Notes: a model not told the origin generated them from the sequence alone. Positions 1 through 9,696 are shown, counted from the first letter of the stretch. The stretch: DNA of 64,000 bases from an uncultured Methanosarcinales archaeon (GCA_964351975.1 CAYGPK010000003.1:24738-88737), one strand, 5' to 3'. A program made the numbers and translations.

Positions 1-624
1 GAGTTGCAAACAGGAGATATATTTAAAGTTGAGATTTATTTTAATTCTGAATTAGTTGATGAGAGTTGTGTTAAGGAGTTGAGTATTTCTTCTGACATAT
101 TATTTACTAAATTTGTATGTGAGGTTCCAAAAAATGGTGAGGGGGAATACACCTTTATAGGAAAGATAATTAGAGATGGAGAAGAGATTAATGTTGATTT
201 AACTAAACAATATATTAATTCAGATGGTAGCTCTGCTTCTCTTGTTTTGGATAATAATTATGATGATAAAACTATAATTTATATTGAAGTTAATTCTGAG
301 TCAGAAGATTTAATTGTTAAGAGTAGAATTCCTAAAAGTGTTATTGAAAATTTAGATGAAGATAATAGAGATGAATTAATATATTCAGAATTAGAGTATG
401 AGATATTAGAGTCAGACCCACTTATTGCCTGGAGTATTGAGAAAGCTCCAGCCAAAATTAATTATACTATTAATAAGAAAGTTTCAAATGAAGACTTAGA
501 GAATTTTCAAATTGAAGTTGAGAATAGCGCAGCATTTAAAGGGCTGAATTATATCTTAATTTTAGTTATATTATTAATTATATTTTTAGTTTTTAGACCT
601 CTTTTAAAAAAGATTAGGAAATGA
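1..624 (+). CDS. hypothetical surface protein, 5' end cut by window edge, C-terminal TM anchor
   Basis: Frame is open from base 1. C-terminus has hydrophobic LNYILILVILLIIFLVF followed by basic RPLLKKIRK. Stop overlaps the next start (ATGA at 621). Confidence 0.55.
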   Translation, partial: ELQTGDIFKVEIYFNSELVDESCVKELSISSDILFTKFVCEVPKNGEGEYTFIGKIIRDGEEINVDLTKQYINSDGSSASLVLDNNYDDKTIIYIEVNSESEDLIVKSRIPKSVIENLDEDNRDELIYSELEYEILESDPLIAWSIEKAPAKINYTINKKVSNEDLENFQIEVENSAAFKGLNYILILVILLIIFLVFRPLLKKIRK

Positions 625-3416
625 ATTTATTTAATAGTAAAGGACAAATTTCAGTTTTTATTGTTATGTCTATTATTATTTTAATCTTATTTATATTTAT
701 GATATTTTATAGTTTTACTAAGGATAAAGAACCACTTAATCAAGATTATAAAAATCACGAAGCTGAGATTCAAGTTATTAAAGAAAAGATTGATTTTTGT
801 TTACAAAGAGAACTGCGTAGAGCACTTATAATTTCAGGAGTTAGAGGAGGATTTATTTATGATGGAGGTGAGTACTATTCACCATCCTCTATACCAAGTA
901 ATACTTACAATTCCGAATTTATTTCTAATATGGATTTAAATTGGAATTATTTACAATTCAATACTTTAGTTCATTCACAATCAGATGTTTTTTCTCCTTT
1001 AATTGACTCACATTTGTCTATAAATGAGAGTGGTGTTATAACTGAGATTTATAGTCATAGCATCAAAGAAGATTTTGAAAAATTTATTTTAGACGAGTTT
1101 ATTAAATGTGATGGTTTGAAAAATTTAGAAGACTTGGGATATAGTCTAAGTTATGATGTTTATTCTAATAATGTTGAGTTTTACAATCCTAGTTCTAAAA
1201 CTTTTATAGTTAAAAATTTTGATGCAAAAATAGGTGATAAGGTTAGAATTTCAACTCCCAATTTAAATTTAGAAGGAATTGTTTTAAGTAATTTTGATGA
1301 TTCAGTTGTTGTTAAAGGTTTATTTACTGAAAATTTAAATTTAGATTATGATCTGAGTTCTGTTTGGATTTCAAATGAAAATTCAAATATTAGTGTTGAA
1401 GTTATTTTTGAAGATGATAAAGTTAGTGCTAATTTGAATTTTCCAGTTGTTTTTTCAAGTAATGAGAATGAATTTTTATTTGATAATTCTTTTGTAACCG
1501 TGCCTGTTCGTTTTAGTAAACTTTTAGATTTATCAAAACACCTTTTGAGAAGTAAATATTTAGATAAAGAAATTGATTATTTTAATGAATCTGAATTAAA
1601 GAGAATTTTACAAAAACACACATATGTTAAAAATGGAGGATTGGGAAATACCCGTTTTGAGATTACAGTTGTTAACGAAACTGATGATTACAAACAGTAT
1701 GTTTATTCATTTATAGATTATGATAATAAAATTTTAGGAAATCCTTATGTTTTTAGTTTTGGGTATGTGAATAAAGCGCCAGAGATTGATCCAAATCGCC
1801 TTGCAAATTTGGATATTACAGAAGAAGGTGTTTTATTTATTGTTTCAAAGAATCAGAGAATTGAATTAGATTTGAAAACTTTAACTTCTGATGAACAAGT
1901 TATTGATAATGACTTTTCTTATTATTTAGCTGATTCTTATGATGGGTTTGATGCTACTTACTCTTTAACAGAAAATGGGCTTTTGACATTTTTAGGAAAA
2001 CAAGAAAAGAAATTTTCATTTGATATTGGTGTTACAGATAGAGAGGCAACAAGAATTATGCCTTTTGTTTTTTTAGTAGGTTTTCCGGATAATTCAGATA
2101 ATAGTGCAACTATTGGTTGTTTACGTTTTAGAAATTTTGGAGTTGACAATTTTTTCCCAATAAATTCAAAATTTAAAGATAAGATATTTTCATATAAAGA
2201 TGATAATGATTATAACAATGCTTATTCATATCAACTTTATGTAAATCCAAATAATCCTGTTTCAAGTTTTGCCCAGAAATCTGTTGTAGAATTTAGTCTT
2301 ACTTGTTTATTATCACCTGAGGTTTATGAGGGAGAAATAAAAATAATAAATAAAGAAACAGGTCAAACTATACGTTCTGAAATTTTAAATAATGAGACTG
2401 GAGAAATTTTAATTGATTCATTACCTTATACACAAGAGCTTTCAGTTTTAGTTAAAGATAAAAGAACTAATATTCCTGTTACACAGCCTTATAATTTAAC
2501 AATTTATCCTGCAACTTGTCTTGGACCTGAAGATTTGCCTGCAAACAAGCAAGCAATTCTAGGTGGTACTATGAGTTGTTGTGATACAAATGCAGTTGTT
2601 AATTCTGTTGATTCTAATAGTCCACGAAATTTTGTAACAAATGATAATTTATATTCTGATAATAGAAAGATACTTGATGCGCCAACTTATTTTTGTCATG
2701 ATGTTGGGACTTTGTATTTAGATAACAATGTTCGTGATTCACAATTAAATATTCATAGAAATGATGTTATTTGGAATTATAATTCAAAGATTACTTCACT
2801 TTTTGAGGCTAATGTTGTTGGAGTTTGTAATGGATTAAGTGCTGTTGGTGATGTTCAAAGCGTTGCAATAGCAGGTTCAGATACTAGTTTAAATTCTATT
2901 GGTTTAAGTTCTTCTAGTGGATATGTTGAGAGAAATTTACAATTAAATTTAAAGACTGTTCAAAGTGCAAATTCTTGTGAATTTTGTTATATTAATACTT
3001 ATAGTGATTTTAACGTTGTATTAGATAATGGACTAGTTTTAAGGTCAGGATTTAAAGCAGTTAATGAAGAAGCAGATTCTAAAGGAGTTAGAGTTATTCC
3101 AAATTCTTATGAAACAAATGATATATATGTTAAATGTTCAGAAGAGATTTACAGAAGTAATAATGGAAATATTTGGGATAAATTATTAATTGGAGATTCA
3201 GAAGTTAAAGAAGAGATTCATCAAAGTTTTGGGTTTTGTTCTCAAGGTTCAAGTTTATGTTCTGGTAGAGTAAATTCGCCTGGTTCTGATGTTCGTTATG
3301 ATAATAATCCTGTTTGTAAGAATTGGTATTTTGATGGTGAGAGTTTAGATTTTAAGGATAATACTGGATGGGTTTGTGGTATTAATCAAACTTGTAGTAG
3401 TGGAGTTTGTAGTTAA
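621..3416 (+). CDS. 931-aa surface protein with class III (type IV pilin-like) signal peptide and Cys-rich C-terminal third
   Basis: N-terminus is MNLFNSKGQISVFIVMSIIILILF (K-G-Q then a hydrophobic helix). There are many Cys after about residue 640, ending ...CGINQTCSSGVCS. Translationally coupled to the upstream ORF. Confidence 0.7.
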   Translation: MNLFNSKGQISVFIVMSIIILILFIFMIFYSFTKDKEPLNQDYKNHEAEIQVIKEKIDFCLQRELRRALIISGVRGGFIYDGGEYYSPSSIPSNTYNSEFISNMDLNWNYLQFNTLVHSQSDVFSPLIDSHLSINESGVITEIYSHSIKEDFEKFILDEFIKCDGLKNLEDLGYSLSYDVYSNNVEFYNPSSKTFIVKNFDAKIGDKVRISTPNLNLEGIVLSNFDDSVVVKGLFTENLNLDYDLSSVWISNENSNISVEVIFEDDKVSANLNFPVVFSSNENEFLFDNSFVTVPVRFSKLLDLSKHLLRSKYLDKEIDYFNESELKRILQKHTYVKNGGLGNTRFEITVVNETDDYKQYVYSFIDYDNKILGNPYVFSFGYVNKAPEIDPNRLANLDITEEGVLFIVSKNQRIELDLKTLTSDEQVIDNDFSYYLADSYDGFDATYSLTENGLLTFLGKQEKKFSFDIGVTDREATRIMPFVFLVGFPDNSDNSATIGCLRFRNFGVDNFFPINSKFKDKIFSYKDDNDYNNAYSYQLYVNPNNPVSSFAQKSVVEFSLTCLLSPEVYEGEIKIINKETGQTIRSEILNNETGEILIDSLPYTQELSVLVKDKRTNIPVTQPYNLTIYPATCLGPEDLPANKQAILGGTMSCCDTNAVVNSVDSNSPRNFVTNDNLYSDNRKILDAPTYFCHDVGTLYLDNNVRDSQLNIHRNDVIWNYNSKITSLFEANVVGVCNGLSAVGDVQSVAIAGSDTSLNSIGLSSSSGYVERNLQLNLKTVQSANSCEFCYINTYSDFNVVLDNGLVLRSGFKAVNEEADSKGVRVIPNSYETNDIYVKCSEEIYRSNNGNIWDKLLIGDSEVKEEIHQSFGFCSQGSSLCSGRVNSPGSDVRYDNNPVCKNWYFDGESLDFKDNTGWVCGINQTCSSGVCS

Positions 3417-8640: not shown

Positions 8641-9696
8641 ATGGTAGTATTAGTAGAATATATTAAAAATTCAATTAAAGCATCTTTTTTTGATGATGAA
8701 GCTTTAGATTATATAGATGAAAATGTAAATTGGAAATTAGTTTATTTTGTATCTTTGTTTGTAGGGTTGTTTAATTGTCTAATTAATTATATTACTACAG
8801 GAAACTTTTTTTATATTATTCTGGAAAATAATTTATTAAATTTAATTATTTCTATAATTTTATTTTTTTTTGGTTCTTTTATAATTTTAGGACTATTTCA
8901 TTTATTGTTAAAATTATTTGGAGGTAAAGGTACATATTTAAATACTTTCAAATTTGGTTTGACTATTGGTTTACCTTATTCTTGTTTTTTTATTTTATTA
9001 ACTTTAATTTTAAATTTAACTTCTTCAAAATTAATATTTATTTTATTAAATACTTTTAATATAGTTTTTATTTTATGGATTTTAATTTTAGAAATTGGGA
9101 TATATTCTGTTATTCATCAAATTAGCAAATTGAGAGTTTTTTTTGCTTTATTTGGAATTCCCATTTTACTTTTTATTGTTAGTATTATTTCAATTTTATT
9201 TTTAATTAATTCAGCGGTGGATTTACAATCTAATGCTTTAGATGTTGGAAGACAGGCTCAAGATAAGATTTCAACAGATTTAGAGATTACTCAAGTTTAT
9301 GTAGTTGATACAAGTGATGGCGAAATCAATAGTGGTGTTGATAATTTATCAATAACTACAAGATTAGGTTCAGGAAGTAATTCTATTGATTTATCAGAGT
9401 TGTTAATTAAGATTGACAGTAGTTCACAAGGTACTATGAATTATTTATTTGAGAGCAGTAATATAGAAGATTCTACTTATATAGTTAATTATTTAGTTAA
9501 TGGTTCACAACATTTAGAAGGTTATATTTCTTCAGGGGATGTTATTGAATTTACAATGCAAATAAGTTCAGGAATTAAGATTTTAGAAGATGATAGTTTA
9601 ATTATTAGGATGATTCCTAAATTGGGTGTGATTAAACCTTTGGAAATAACAATTCCTTTTGAACTTATTGATTCAGTTACCTATCTTTATCCTTAA
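8641..9696 (+). CDS. fusion protein: polytopic membrane domain (about 5-6 TM) + archaellin globular domain
   Basis: Residues ~190-351 (AVDLQSNALDVGRQAQDKISTDLEITQVYVVDTSDG...RLGSGSN...DSVTYLYP) align end to end with the mature part of the archaellins at 38367-40341. The archaellin signal peptide and hydrophobic helix are replaced by about 190 aa of TM helices. Confidence 0.75.
   Translation: MVVLVEYIKNSIKASFFDDEALDYIDENVNWKLVYFVSLFVGLFNCLINYITTGNFFYIILENNLLNLIISIILFFFGSFIILGLFHLLLKLFGGKGTYLNTFKFGLTIGLPYSCFFILLTLILNLTSSKLIFILLNTFNIVFILWILILEIGIYSVIHQISKLRVFFALFGIPILLFIVSIISILFLINSAVDLQSNALDVGRQAQDKISTDLEITQVYVVDTSDGEINSGVDNLSITTRLGSGSNSIDLSELLIKIDSSSQGTMNYLFESSNIEDSTYIVNYLVNGSQHLEGYISSGDVIEFTMQISSGIKILEDDSLIIRMIPKLGVIKPLEITIPFELIDSVTYLYP

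What the first reader, a model, noticed from the sequence alone, without database searches (positions are those of the whole stretch)
621..9696. Operon-like cluster of giant pilin-headed proteins: candidate novel type IV filament / cell-contact apparatus
Seen: five co-directional, almost gap-free genes (ATGA overlap at 621, 7-nt overlap at 6628, abutting at 8640/8641). Three open with a short basic leader, a Gly, then a ~20-aa hydrophobic helix. These are MNLFNSKGQISVFIVMSIIILILF (931 aa), KKKGIGPVIASSLLIVVAVVAIIGF (913 aa) and MLGKNERGQVSIFIVIGVVFLLVAVFLIF (670 aa). The 131-aa ORF is also N-terminally anchored. The 931- and 670-aa proteins share a post-signal motif (IKEKIDFC..ISGVRGG versus VVEKCIYD..LGFQGG) but diverge completely afterwards. 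The last gene carries an archaellin domain. No assembly ATPase, platform protein or prepilin peptidase is present anywhere in the 64 kb. Established: [KR]-G followed by a hydrophobic helix is the archaeal class III signal peptide, cut by PibD/FlaK-type peptidases. It marks type IV filament subunits, which are normally small. Inference: 70-100 kDa proteins with pilin heads could be tip or minor subunits that present large adhesive domains. That would be a host- or surface-contact device for a small-genome, possibly episymbiotic archaeon.
Basis: partly seen in the sequence, partly recalled or inferred. Interest (0 to 1): 0.8.

Follow-up and report, generated by a model that had tools for sequence, protein, structure and literature searches.

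The report
Giant pilin-like surface protein operon
A small-genome (DPANN, Woesearchaeota-like) archaeon carries an operon of very large cell-surface proteins whose starts look like pilus-subunit signals. One of them is a pilin head fused to a complete phage tail-fibre-like sugar-binding protein, which makes the operon a good but untested candidate for a cell-attachment device.

Summary
In detail: the ORFs, overlaps, N-terminal motifs and archaellin domain are all as described, and the 64 kb contains no assembly ATPase or platform homologue.

The cluster is composite. Its core is a conserved four-gene module that starts one gene upstream of the finding:
- A, ~260 aa, Sec signal plus C-terminal anchor
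- B, ~930 aa
- D, ~131 aa
- E, ~670 aa

This order recurs in 13 of 17 related Woesearchaeota/Nanoarchaeota genomes. B and E carry an invariant [KR]-[G/A/S]|Q-[IV]-S-[IV]-F motif, share a ~200-residue N-terminal domain, and continue as Cys-rich strings of Ig-like domains. They have no Pfam, PDB or phage relatives. The E family is large, with 628 clusters at E<=1e-30.

Two genes are lineage-specific insertions:
- The 913-aa protein is an archaeal pilin head plus a Ser-rich linker plus a full-length homologue of marine podophage tail-fibre/virion proteins.
- The 351-aa protein is a Yip1 membrane domain fused to a whole archaellin.

Small and modular pilin genes of the same head type recur next to the module in five further relatives.

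Best reading: a minor-pilin/tip-adhesin set for a type IV filament whose motor is encoded elsewhere (confidence ~0.5). Large class III adhesin-like proteins and modular pilins are already known, so this is a new variant, not a new kind.

The parts
4..624 (+). 3' part of gene A (259 aa in full; the first 53 codons lie upstream of the window). It has a Sec-type signal peptide and a C-terminal TM anchor with a basic tail (..FRPLLKKIRK). It is the first gene of the operon.
   Evidence: The full gene and its promoter-side intergenic region are in L001:4729-5508. Homologues sit directly before B in 13 relatives. No Pfam or PHROG match.
621..3416 (+). Gene B (931 aa). Leader MNLFNSKG | QISVFIV.., one TM helix, an N-terminal domain homologous to that of E, then a string of Ig/FN3/cadherin-like beta-sandwich domains; 18 Cys.
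   Evidence: 21 homologues, many invariant Cys; AF2 pLDDT 84; Foldseek: only low-TM Ig-like hits; no PDB or phage homologue; hhalign to E; motif table.
3434..3853 (+). Gene C, residues 1-140: class III-like leader (..NKKKG | IGPVIASSLLIVV..) plus a small pilin head domain with 2 Cys.
   Evidence: 43% identical to a stand-alone 188-aa pilin right after E in L023, and 35% to a second ORF at window 63526-64000. That paralogue gives a weak Pilin_N hit (E 0.0054). C itself gives weak Flp1_like (E 0.0085).
3854..3919 (+). Gene C, residues 141-162: Ser/Asn-rich linker between the head and the grafted module.
   Evidence: Read directly from the translation. It lies between the two alignment blocks.
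3920..6175 (+). Gene C, residues 163-913: LamG + SPRY + DUF7483 module, a full-length homologue of marine podophage tail-fibre/virion structural proteins.
   Evidence: Pfam DUF7483 4.8e-90, weak SPRY and LamG. tblastn against phages: 72 records, 31-38% identity over 97-99% of the query. blastp to MEP301 gp16 residues 16-779 of 788, E 2e-122. PHROG 19943 'virion structural protein' 2e-145 and 24898 'tail fiber protein' 2.5e-62. The phage copies lie in tail modules. GC3 equals that of the neighbouring genes.
6239..6634 (+). Gene D (131 aa): small N-terminally anchored protein of normal pilin size, with 4 Cys conserved in the family. Homologues start KK[A/G/S] | [LIV]x[ST][YH] + hydrophobic helix; this copy has SKMA|LSSY.
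   Evidence: 13-sequence alignment: C41 and C116 invariant, C52 and C131 nearly invariant. Always directly before E. No demonstrable homology to E beyond the signal/TM.
6628..8640 (+). Gene E (670 aa). Leader MLGKNERG | QVSIFIV.., one TM helix, a conserved alpha/beta N-terminal region (~40-420) with 8 invariant Cys and an HHLYTLDYD motif, then beta-sandwich (transthyretin/CnaB-like) domains.
   Evidence: 78 homologues, all ~670 aa; invariant columns; AF2 pLDDT 84; no global fold match; no PDB or phage homologue; 6532/3068/628 representative clusters at E<=1e-3/1e-10/1e-30; named members are all Woesearchaeota or Nanoarchaeota.
8641..9696 (+). Gene F (351 aa): a Yip1 membrane domain whose fifth TM is the hydrophobic N-terminal helix of a complete archaellin. 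There is no prepilin leader, so this is a membrane-tethered archaellin.
   Evidence: Pfam Yip1 1.5e-11 and Arch_flagellin 1.6e-9. 39-43% identical to the three archaellins of the window over their mature length. 5 TM segments. The same gene is present in two independent assemblies. Absent after E in all relatives, and no close relative found in metagenome contigs.
38352..40341 (+). Three tandem archaellin genes (209, 197 and 197 aa; ..KKAAEG | IGTLIIF..), paralogues of the C-terminal part of F.
   Evidence: Pfam Arch_flagellin 1e-25 to 1e-28; alignment.
63526..64000 (+). Start of a second gene with the same pilin head as C (MFHRKG | ITPVVAFALLL..). It runs off the end of the window.
   Evidence: 35% identity over 139 aa, E 2e-16; weak Pilin_N.

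Best explanation
Window 1-9696, plus 160 nt upstream of the window, is a six-gene operon of cell-surface proteins in a Woesearchaeota-like DPANN archaeon.

**Proposed roles**
- The core A-B-D-E is a conserved set of accessory ('minor') type IV filament subunits.
- D is a normal-sized minor pilin.
- B and E are giant subunits. Each has a prepilin-type leader, a membrane helix and a shared head domain, followed by Cys-stabilised stalks of Ig-like domains.
- A is a Sec-exported, C-terminally anchored partner.

**Proposed mechanism**
1. A class III signal peptidase (EppA/PibD type) cuts after the G/A/S.
2. The hydrophobic helices let B, D and E nucleate or cap a pilus. The pilus itself is built from small ISPVVA-type pilins by an ATPase/platform encoded elsewhere.
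3. This places the large domains at the pilus tip, as cell-contact or adhesion structures.

**Lineage-specific additions**
- C is an extra modular pilin inserted between B and D: a small pilin head carrying a complete phage tail-fibre-like LamG/SPRY/DUF7483 module, presumably a glycan-binding adhesin.
- F is a membrane-tethered archaellin added after E. It may anchor or nucleate a filament made of the three archaellins.

**Shown:** gene structure, conservation, motifs, domain homologies, predicted folds.
**Inferred:** cleavage, filament incorporation, tip location, adhesion, and the role of F.
For: 1. **Class III-like signals conserved far beyond what membrane anchoring needs.** The leader is 5-13 residues. 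The -2 residue is mostly K/R. The -1 residue is G/A/S (E family: G29/A23/S20). Q at +1 and F at +5 are invariant. There are no charges in the next ~20 residues. Distant family members start MKKRG|QVT.F. An invariant +1 Gln after a Gly-ended short leader is the signature of EppA-processed pilins of M. maripaludis (PMC3875500).
2. **The motif is specific.** Within +-10 kb in 12 genomes, it is found almost only in B, D and E.
3. **Conserved order.** A-B-D-E occurs in 13 of 17 relatives, and D-E in all 17.
4. **Association with recognisable pilin genes.** Small (128-188 aa) and modular (351-1184 aa; LamG, FGE-sulfatase) pilin genes with the ISPVVA head lie inside or directly beside the module in L016, L023, L031 and L032 as well as in the window, and 6 kb from E in L030.
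5. **Machinery near a relative.** A T2SSE plus two T2SSF genes lie 8 kb from the module in L004. In that 22-kb stretch, B, D and E are the only class III-like proteins.
6. **Extracellular stalk architecture.** B and E have Ig-like stalks and conserved cysteines.
7. **C has modular-pilin architecture**, with an independently existing head and module.
8. **Precedents.** Published models place large class III proteins and adhesins in archaeal type IV loci. Separate loci for pilins and ATPase are normal there.
Against: - No curated pilin model (Class_IIIsignal, Pilin_N) reaches threshold on B, C, D or E.
- Residue +5 is Phe, not the Glu of EppA substrates.
- Foldseek gives no pilin-fold hit.
- In the models, the TM helix is followed by a low-confidence linker (B residues 30-45 pLDDT <50; E residues 31-40 mean pLDDT 57) rather than one continuous alpha-1 helix.
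- An ATPase/platform lies within 10 kb in only 1 of 17 relatives and nowhere in the 64-kb window.
- No prepilin peptidase was seen in any DNA examined.
- E is strongly conserved in length and sequence, which suits a structural envelope component as well as an adhesin.
- In distant relatives, E-like genes sit among giant Sec-signal proteins without pilin genes.
- The adjacency of pilin genes is only moderately beyond chance by my rough estimate, because such pilin genes may be numerous per genome.
Confidence: 0.5

Rival explanations
1. B, D and E are class III-processed surface proteins that stay in the membrane or envelope. There they form a non-filament complex, such as an S-layer stalk/anchor or a bindosome-like assembly, together with A and other giant secreted proteins. 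The prepilin-type signal would serve export and anchoring only.
For: - Class III signals occur on non-pilin proteins in Sulfolobus, where sugar-binding proteins form the bindosome (PMC3047682 abstract).
- E is a large, length-conserved family with 628 clusters at E<=1e-30, as expected for a core envelope part.
- Foldseek hits include the S-layer anchor SlaB, though at low TM.
- Distant E-like genes lie in clusters of 1100-2100-aa Cys-rich Sec-signal proteins.
- The models show a flexible linker after the TM helix.
- There is no consistent ATPase linkage.
Against: - ISPVVA-type small and modular pilins are repeatedly inserted into or next to the module.
- D has the size and layout of an ordinary pilin.
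- The bindosome itself depends on a type IV-like assembly system, so this rival is not fully distinct from the best explanation.
Confidence: 0.3
2. The N-termini are uncleaved signal anchors. The proteins would be ordinary type II membrane proteins with large ectodomains, and the resemblance to prepilin signals would be coincidental.
For: - No pilin HMM reaches threshold.
- No prepilin peptidase was found in the DNA examined.
- Residue +5 is not Glu.
Against: - A plain anchor does not explain an invariant Gln and Phe at fixed positions next to a small residue and a basic residue, kept across families that share only 29-57% identity (and less in the more distant members).
- It also does not explain why three different families in one operon share this layout.
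Confidence: 0.1
3. The cluster is viral or mobile DNA, such as a provirus tail module, and not a cellular apparatus.
For: The C module is a full-length homologue of podophage tail-fibre/virion proteins.
Against: - Only that one module is phage-like. A, B, D, E and F have no PHROG or phage-genome hits.
- The module sits in conserved chromosomal synteny (ribosomal proteins, PUA, NUDIX | A-B-D-E | Lit, S-layer-like, GCD14, CobA).
- GC3 of the phage-like part equals that of its neighbours.
- The phage-like part is fused in frame to a cellular pilin head.
Confidence: 0.03

Closest known systems
Modular type IV pilins of bacteria (S. sanguinis PilB with a vWA module, PilC with a concanavalin A-like lectin module; Raynaud et al. 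2021, PMC8179133)
   Same: C has the same three-part design: a small pilin module, a short linker and a grafted functional module of the ConA-like lectin superfamily. The same head also exists as a stand-alone small pilin and with other modules (LamG_3, FGE-sulfatase) in relatives.
   Different: - C is archaeal, and its head is of the archaeal Pilin_N/ISPVVA type rather than the bacterial N-methylation type.
- The grafted module is a whole ~750-residue phage tail-fibre-like protein, not a single small domain.
- Nothing has been shown about assembly or binding.
Minor-pilin tip or initiation complexes (T2SS GspI-J-K with the large GspK; P. aeruginosa minor pilins plus PilY1; ETEC CofB / V. cholerae TcpB), as summarised in PMC8179133 and PMC4858521
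   Same: A co-transcribed set of several pilin-like proteins of unequal size, including very large ones, encoded apart from the major pilin. The proposed role is to cap the filament and present an adhesin.
   Different: - No sequence or fold similarity was detected to any of these.
- B and E are larger (670-930 aa), and their head domain is a family of its own.
- A has no counterpart.
Epd pili of Methanococcus maripaludis and their EppA-processed pilins (PMC3875500); 'system 1' archaeal type IV filament loci, which have two platform genes and also occur in DPANN (bioRxiv 10.64898/2026.04.22.720090)
   Same: - A short leader ending in Gly, with a conserved +1 Gln.
- Pilin genes scattered over several loci, away from the ATPase.
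- Some pilin-like proteins are much larger than the major pilin.
- The relative L004 has one T2SSE and two T2SSF genes, as in system 1.
   Different: - Residue +5 is an invariant Phe instead of Glu.
- Pfam Class_IIIsignal/DUF361 does not match.
- The -1 residue is often Ala or Ser.
- The proteins are 10 times larger than Epd major pilins.
Large class III-signal 'adhesin-like' and Cys-rich C-terminally anchored 'S-layer-like' proteins modelled in archaeal type IV pilus loci (Makarova et al. 2016, PMC4858521)
   Same: The same cast of parts: a big signal-bearing protein with conserved cysteines, a C-terminally anchored partner and small pilins. They are predicted to be minor pilins or adhesins.
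   Different: - Those loci include the ATPase and TadC genes, and belong to Thermoproteales, methanogens and similar groups.
- The families here have no arCOG/Pfam assignment that I could detect, and they are specific to Woesearchaeota/Nanoarchaeota.
Tail-fibre / virion structural proteins of marine T7-like podophages (Pelagibacter phage HTVC011P gp36-37, Methylophilales phage MEP301 gp16, Roseobacter phage CRP-811, cyanophage SS120-1)
   Same: C residues 163-909 align end to end with these ~790-aa proteins at 31-38% identity, with the same LamG-SPRY-DUF7483 order.
   Different: - The phage proteins have no signal or membrane helix (117 of the 120 best homologues lack the pilin head) and are encoded in tail modules.
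- C is chromosomal and pilin-headed.
Sulfolobus bindosome substrates (sugar-binding proteins with class III signals; PMC3047682)
   Same: Large non-pilin-sized proteins that carry prepilin-type signals.
   Different: - No solute-binding domains are present here.
- The architecture here is a stalk of Ig-like domains.

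Membership tests
Archaeal class III signal peptide / type IV pilin-like proteins | Short basic leader ending in a small residue (G/A, sometimes S), directly followed by an uncharged hydrophobic helix of ~20 residues | tested here: met
   - B: MNLFNSKG|QISVF..
- E: MLGKNERG|QVSIF..
- C: ..NKKKG|IGPVIA..
- D family: KK[A/G/S]|..

Across homologues the -1 residue is G/A/S in 72/75 (E) and 17/17 (B) sequences. On average there are fewer than 0.03 charged residues in +2..+21.
Archaeal class III signal peptide / type IV pilin-like proteins | Match to a curated pilin N-terminal model (Pfam Class_IIIsignal PF04021, Pilin_N PF07790, or NCBIfam equivalents) above threshold | tested here: not met
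   There were no such hits at E<=10 for B, D or E. Only sub-threshold hits appeared:
- Flp1_like on C (16 bits against a cutoff of 33.5)
- DUF7287 on E (16.6 against 27)
- Pilin_N on the paralogue at 63526 (18 against 25.2)

Archaeal class III signal peptide / type IV pilin-like proteins | Cleavage by a prepilin peptidase (PibD/FlaK/EppA), and presence of that enzyme in the genome | not testable with these tools
   No Peptidase_A24 was found in the window's membrane ORFs. The rest of the genome could not be scanned, and cleavage needs an experiment.
Archaeal class III signal peptide / type IV pilin-like proteins | Genomic association with a type IV assembly ATPase and platform protein | tested here: inconclusive
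   - None in the 64 kb.
- T2SSE plus 2 T2SSF lie 8 kb away in one relative (L004/L013).
- Absent within 10 kb in the other 16 relatives.
- Separation of these genes is normal in archaea.
EppA-type (Epd) pilins of methanococci | Conserved +1 Gln after a Gly-ended leader of 5-13 residues | tested here: met
   Q at +1 in 75/75 E-family and 17/17 B-family sequences. The leaders here are 8 residues long. The criterion is quoted from PMC3875500.
EppA-type (Epd) pilins of methanococci | Conserved +5 Glu and a DUF361 match | tested here: not met
   Residue +5 is an invariant Phe. There is no DUF361/Class_IIIsignal hit.
Modular pilins (pilin module + linker + grafted module) | The N-terminal module is homologous to stand-alone small pilins | tested here: met
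   C residues 5-138 are 43% identical to the 188-aa protein following E in L023. The same head occurs in a 128-aa protein in L032.
Modular pilins (pilin module + linker + grafted module) | The C-terminal module exists independently and has a function unrelated to pilus biogenesis | tested here: met
   Residues 163-909 are a full-length homologue of phage tail-fibre/virion proteins. 117 of the 120 best homologues lack the pilin head.
Modular pilins (pilin module + linker + grafted module) | Incorporated into a type IV filament (at the tip) | not testable with these tools
   This requires purification, imaging or genetics.
Phage tail fibre / virion structural protein family (PHROG 19943, 24898; Pfam DUF7483) | Sequence membership across the whole protein | tested here: met
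   DUF7483 4.8e-90. PHROG 19943 2.1e-145. 35% identity over 810 alignment columns to MEP301 gp16.
Phage tail fibre / virion structural protein family (PHROG 19943, 24898; Pfam DUF7483) | Encoded in a phage structural module | tested here: not met
   The flanking genes are the conserved cellular genes B and D. No phage genes are nearby.
Archaellins (Pfam Arch_flagellin) | Archaellin domain above threshold (gene F) | tested here: met
   38.7 bits against a cutoff of 29.5. 39-43% identity to the window's three archaellins.
Archaellins (Pfam Arch_flagellin) | Cleavable class III leader directly before the hydrophobic helix (gene F) | tested here: not met
   In F the helix is preceded by four Yip1 TM segments (..RVFFALFG IPILLF..), with no basic leader.
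PilY1 / DUF2341-type pilus adhesins | PilY1 beta-propeller or DUF2341 domain | tested here: not met
   No such Pfam hit in A-F. Foldseek finds only Ig-like sandwiches.

The most novel reading that the evidence does not exclude
A-B-D-E encodes the tip complex of a Woesearchaeota-specific host-contact pilus that has not been recognised before. It would be a core organelle of these episymbiont-like archaea. Lineages re-arm it by slotting interchangeable modular pilins into the operon. In this genome the inserted warhead is a domesticated phage receptor-binding protein, so the archaeon would recognise its partner cell's surface glycans in the way a phage recognises its host.
Probability: 0.2. Interest if true: 0.85.

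Novelty: new variant of a known kind. Interest (0 to 1): 0.6.

Why it matters
How DPANN archaea find and hold on to partner cells is largely unknown. Almost no Woesearchaeota are cultured.

This work supplies three things:
- **A concrete gene set to test.** It is conserved and widespread: the E family has 628 50%-identity clusters at E<=1e-30, all annotated 'hypothetical'. Possible tests are cleavage assays, metaproteomics and cryo-ET labelling.
- **Reusable markers.** The invariant K-[G/A/S]|Q-x-S-x-F signal and the shared B/E head domain could seed new family models.
- **A clear case of module exchange.** The pilin/phage-tail-fibre chimera shows exchange between viral receptor-binding proteins and cellular adhesins, and it extends the bacterial 'modular pilin' idea to archaea.

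If the proteins turn out to be envelope components instead, the family is still a major uncharacterised part of the Woesearchaeota cell surface.

Tried and rejected
- **Curated models.** Pfam, NCBIfam and PHROG scans of all six proteins and of their isolated N-termini found no pilin model above threshold. A, B, D and E gave nothing at all.
- **PDB sequence searches** with family profiles of B, D and E found no meaningful hit.
- **Foldseek** of both AlphaFold models against PDB, and of E against viral structures, gave only low-TM (<=0.19) Ig/CnaB/transthyretin-like matches. There was no global match and no pilin-fold match.
- **Viral origin of B and E** is rejected: tblastn against 50,697 phage records gave no match.
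- **Homology of D to the B/E head** is not supported: hhalign probability is 21%, over the signal/TM only.
- **Recurrence of the Yip1-archaellin fusion.** A metagenome scan with F found no relative, so it stays a single-lineage curiosity.
- **Context of the two closest pilin-headed C homologues** (P0101, P0102) could not be retrieved.
- **Literature.** Searches for DUF7483, DUF7287 and for pilin/tail-fibre fusions in DPANN returned nothing relevant.
- **Recent horizontal acquisition of the C module** was considered, because its total GC is higher (0.318 against ~0.27-0.29 for the neighbouring genes). It is rejected as recent, because GC3 is 0.13, the same as the neighbours.
- **Assembly chimera in C** was considered and rejected. 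Both junctions (B to the C head; the C tail to D) appear in independent Logan contigs.
- **Not possible with the tools.** I could not inspect model coordinates, so I could not test whether the head domain has a pilin-like alpha-beta fold. I also could not scan whole genomes for the peptidase or the ATPase.

Full report
**1.
The five ORFs are at the stated coordinates, all on the + strand. The ATGA overlap at 621, the 7-nt overlap at 6628 and the abutting stop/start at 8640/8641 can be read directly. Each of the 931-, 913-, 131- and 670-aa proteins has one hydrophobic segment at residues ~10-30. The 351-aa protein has five.

The window is ~27% GC and carries archaeal housekeeping genes. The closest relatives of its proteins are annotated as Woesearchaeota or Nanoarchaeota MAGs. 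So this is a DPANN archaeon.

tblastn with a relative's T2SSE and T2SSF proteins finds nothing in the 64 kb. Pfam on the membrane ORFs finds rhomboid, VTT/DedA and an Lnt-like CN-hydrolase, but no prepilin peptidase.

**2. The cluster starts earlier and is composite.**
An independent assembly that extends upstream shows that window 4-624 is the end of a 259-aa gene. I call it A. It has a Sec signal peptide and a C-terminal anchor, and it is preceded by a divergent NUDIX gene and an AT-rich promoter region.

I name the genes A (259 aa), B (931), C (913), D (131), E (670) and F (351).

I ran blastp on ORFs of 22 fetched loci from genomes and metagenomes. These represent 17 distinct relatives with E at 37-57% identity.
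- A-B-D-E occurs in that order and orientation in 13 relatives.
- B-x-D-E occurs in one.
- D-E alone occurs in three.

The cleanest comparator is L030. It has the same wider synteny as the window (ribosomal S8e/L15e, PUA, NUDIX | A-B-D-E | ... Lit, S-layer-like, GCD14, CobA) but lacks C and F. C and F are therefore lineage-specific insertions into a conserved four-gene module.

**3. The N-termini are more than membrane anchors.**
- In 75 E-family and 17 B-family sequences with intact N-termini, Gln at +1 and Phe at +5 are invariant. In the E family the -1 residue is G (29), A (23) or S (20), and the -2 residue is mostly K/R. The next ~20 residues are essentially uncharged.
- An exhaustive profile search shows that the E family is large: 6532, 3068 and 628 representative clusters at E<=1e-3, 1e-10 and 1e-30. 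Its distant, still full-length members begin MKKRG|QVT.F.
- D-family proteins begin KK[A/G/S] | [LIV]x[ST][YH] followed by a hydrophobic helix. They have two invariant and two nearly invariant cysteines in a ~100-residue ectodomain, which is the size of an ordinary pilin.
- A simple class III rule applied to all ORFs within 10 kb of the module in 12 genomes picks out almost only B, D and E.
- A short Gly-ended leader with a conserved +1 Gln is the published signature of EppA-processed pilins in Methanococcus maripaludis. Those pilins also have a +5 Glu, which is absent here (PMC3875500).
- No curated pilin HMM reaches threshold on any of these proteins. The evidence is therefore pattern conservation, not family membership.

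**4. What B and E look like.**
hhalign shows that B and E share a homologous N-terminal region: E 1-222 aligns with B 1-337, at 98.5% probability and E 1.6e-15. B carries a ~100-residue insertion.

AlphaFold2 models built on family alignments are confident, with mean pLDDT 84 for both. Each model shows:
- a TM helix
- a low-confidence linker
- a second helix bearing a conserved Cys and the GFQGG/GLKGG motif
- an alpha/beta region
- strings of beta-sandwich domains

Foldseek against PDB and BFVD finds only low-TM matches to Ig/FN3/cadherin/CnaB/transthyretin-like domains. These include Gram-positive pilins, SlaB and the GhpA hook. There are no PDB or phage sequence homologues. Many cysteines are invariant. 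These are extracellular, disulfide-stabilised stalk-like proteins of new families.

**5. C is a pilin/phage-tail-fibre chimera.**
- Residues 1-140 are a small pilin head (..KKG|IGPVIASSLLIVV.., two Cys). It is 43% identical to a stand-alone 188-aa protein that follows E in L023. It is 35% identical to a second ORF at the window's end (63526-64000), which gives a weak Pilin_N hit.
- After a Ser-rich linker, residues 163-909 align end to end with ~790-aa tail-fibre/virion structural proteins of marine T7-like podophages. Examples are pelagiphage HTVC011P, Methylophilales phage MEP301, roseophage CRP-811 and cyanophage SS120-1. Identity is 31-38% over 97-99% of the query (E 2e-122 to MEP301 gp16).
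- This part also matches PHROG 19943 at 2e-145 and Pfam DUF7483 at 5e-90. The phage copies lie in tail modules.
- Of the 120 best homologues, only the three closest carry the pilin head. Nearly all the rest start without any signal.
- GC3 of the module equals that of neighbouring genes, and both fusion junctions occur in independent assemblies. The gene is therefore real and long resident.
- This is exactly the 'modular pilin' design described for bacteria, including a ConA-like lectin module (PMC8179133). Here it is in an archaeon, with a whole phage receptor-binding-type protein as cargo.

**6. Pilin genes recur around the module.**
Genes with the same ISPVVA-type head lie in these positions:
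- between B and D in L031 (351 aa, with LamG_3)
- directly after E in L016, L023 (188 aa) and L032 (128 aa and 607 aa)
- directly before A in L032 (1184 aa)
- upstream in L023, fused to an FGE-sulfatase domain
- 6 kb downstream of E in L030

So the module is a preferred neighbourhood for small pilins, which are candidate major subunits, and for interchangeable modular pilins. By a rough estimate this adjacency is moderately beyond chance. I could not calibrate it, because the number of such pilin genes per genome is unknown.

**7. Links to machinery.**
In L004/L013, a T2SSE ATPase and two T2SSF platform genes lie 8 kb from the module on the opposite strand. This layout is called 'system 1' in a recent census and is also reported from DPANN. 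B, D and E are the only class III-like proteins in that 22-kb stretch. No other relative has the machinery within 10 kb. This is weak positive evidence. Separation of pilin genes from the ATPase is, however, normal in archaea.

**8. F.**
F is a Yip1 domain (four TMs) fused to a complete archaellin. The archaellin's own hydrophobic helix becomes the fifth TM. There is no basic leader, so it cannot be a normal peptidase substrate. F is paralogous to three tandem archaellin genes at 38352-40341, which have canonical ..AEG|IGTLIIF.. leaders. It is present in two independent assemblies but was not found elsewhere. One inference is that it is a membrane-tethered subunit that could anchor or nucleate an archaellin-type filament. 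I treat this as unexplained.

**9. Interpretation.**
- **Best reading (~0.5).** A-B-D-E is a conserved minor-subunit/tip set of a type IV filament whose motor and major pilin are encoded elsewhere. C is an added adhesive modular pilin.
- **Main rival (~0.3).** These are class III-processed proteins that stay in the envelope as a non-filament complex. In favour: the flexible linker after the TM helix, the strong length conservation of E, the lack of ATPase linkage, and distant E-like genes embedded among 1100-2100-aa Sec-signal proteins.
- **Plain signal anchors (~0.1)** do not explain the invariant positions.
- **A viral element (~0.03)** is excluded for everything except the C module.

**10. 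Comparison and novelty.**
Several things are already in the literature:
- large class III 'adhesin-like' proteins and Cys-rich C-terminally anchored partners in archaeal type IV loci (PMC4858521; preprint)
- bacterial modular pilins and minor-pilin tip complexes (PMC8179133)

What is new here:
- the specific, widespread and wholly unannotated Woesearchaeota module
- the shared B/E head family, with its K-[G/A/S]|Q..F signal
- the pilin/phage-fibre chimera
- the Yip1-archaellin fusion

I file it as a new variant of a known kind, with interest 0.6. It is a solid, testable lead on DPANN cell contact, but every functional step is still inferred.

Noticed in passing
window 38352-38981, 38985-39578, 39748-40341 (+): Three tandem archaellin genes (Pfam Arch_flagellin 1e-25 to 1e-28) with canonical ..KKAAEG|IGTLIIF.. 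leaders. No archaellum accessory or motor genes lie beside them; TFE-like and SMC genes flank them.
   Followed up: partly
window 8641-9696 (+): A Yip1 membrane domain fused to a complete archaellin, with no prepilin leader. It occurs in two independent assemblies but was not found in any relative or in a metagenome scan. Its function is unexplained.
   Followed up: partly
window 63526-64000 (+), runs off the end: A second gene starting with the same pilin head as the 913-aa protein (MFHRKG|ITPVVAFALLL..; 35% identity; weak Pilin_N hit). It is probably another modular pilin.
   Followed up: partly
window 9693-10277 (-), 22251-23693 (-), 24348-25808 (-): Bacterial-type lipoprotein genes in an archaeon: a Lit (lipoprotein intramolecular transacylase) homologue, a multi-TM CN-hydrolase resembling apolipoprotein N-acyltransferase (Lnt), and a 486-aa protein with a lipobox-like ..LISGC. 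Lit is also syntenic with the module in L023, L030 and L031.
   Followed up: no
window 10700-12253 (-) and 60601-61824 (+): Two candidate S-layer/envelope proteins with C-terminal anchors: a sub-threshold PACE-CTERM-type 'putative S-layer protein' match and CARDB/NPCBM_assoc domains.
   Followed up: no
L004 15444-22022 (-) (= L013): A type IV-like locus in a relative: a T2SSE ATPase, two T2SSF platform genes, two paralogous multi-TM proteins (294 and 218 aa), a 328-aa lipoprotein-like protein and a 162-aa membrane protein. It contains no recognisable pilin gene of its own.
   Followed up: partly
L028 1-18378 and L029 1-16638: In distant relatives the E-like gene (two copies in L028) lies in co-directional clusters of 1100-2100-aa Cys-rich proteins with Sec-type signals. 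L029 is followed by a ParA/MinD-like ATPase.
   Followed up: partly
L002 16004-20280 (CP060218.1): 4 kb downstream of the D-E pair there is a second cluster: a Sec-signal protein, two small proteins with KKA|Q.. and KS|Q.. leaders, and a 797-aa protein with a KHG|F.. leader and two Laminin_G_3 domains. This is another pilin-like set with a lectin-bearing giant.
   Followed up: no
L001 3394-3975; L004 2652-3224; L008, L015, L017, L019, L030: A conserved ~190-aa multi-TM protein of unknown family lies ~2 kb upstream of gene A in many relatives, between the PUA and NUDIX genes. It may simply reflect local synteny.
   Followed up: no
window 6176-6238: The 63-nt gap between C and D contains TATA-like AT-rich boxes (..CTTATAAAAA.., ..TTTATATTAAAC..). 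D-E-F may therefore have their own promoter. In relatives without C, the B-D gap is a similar length.
   Followed up: no
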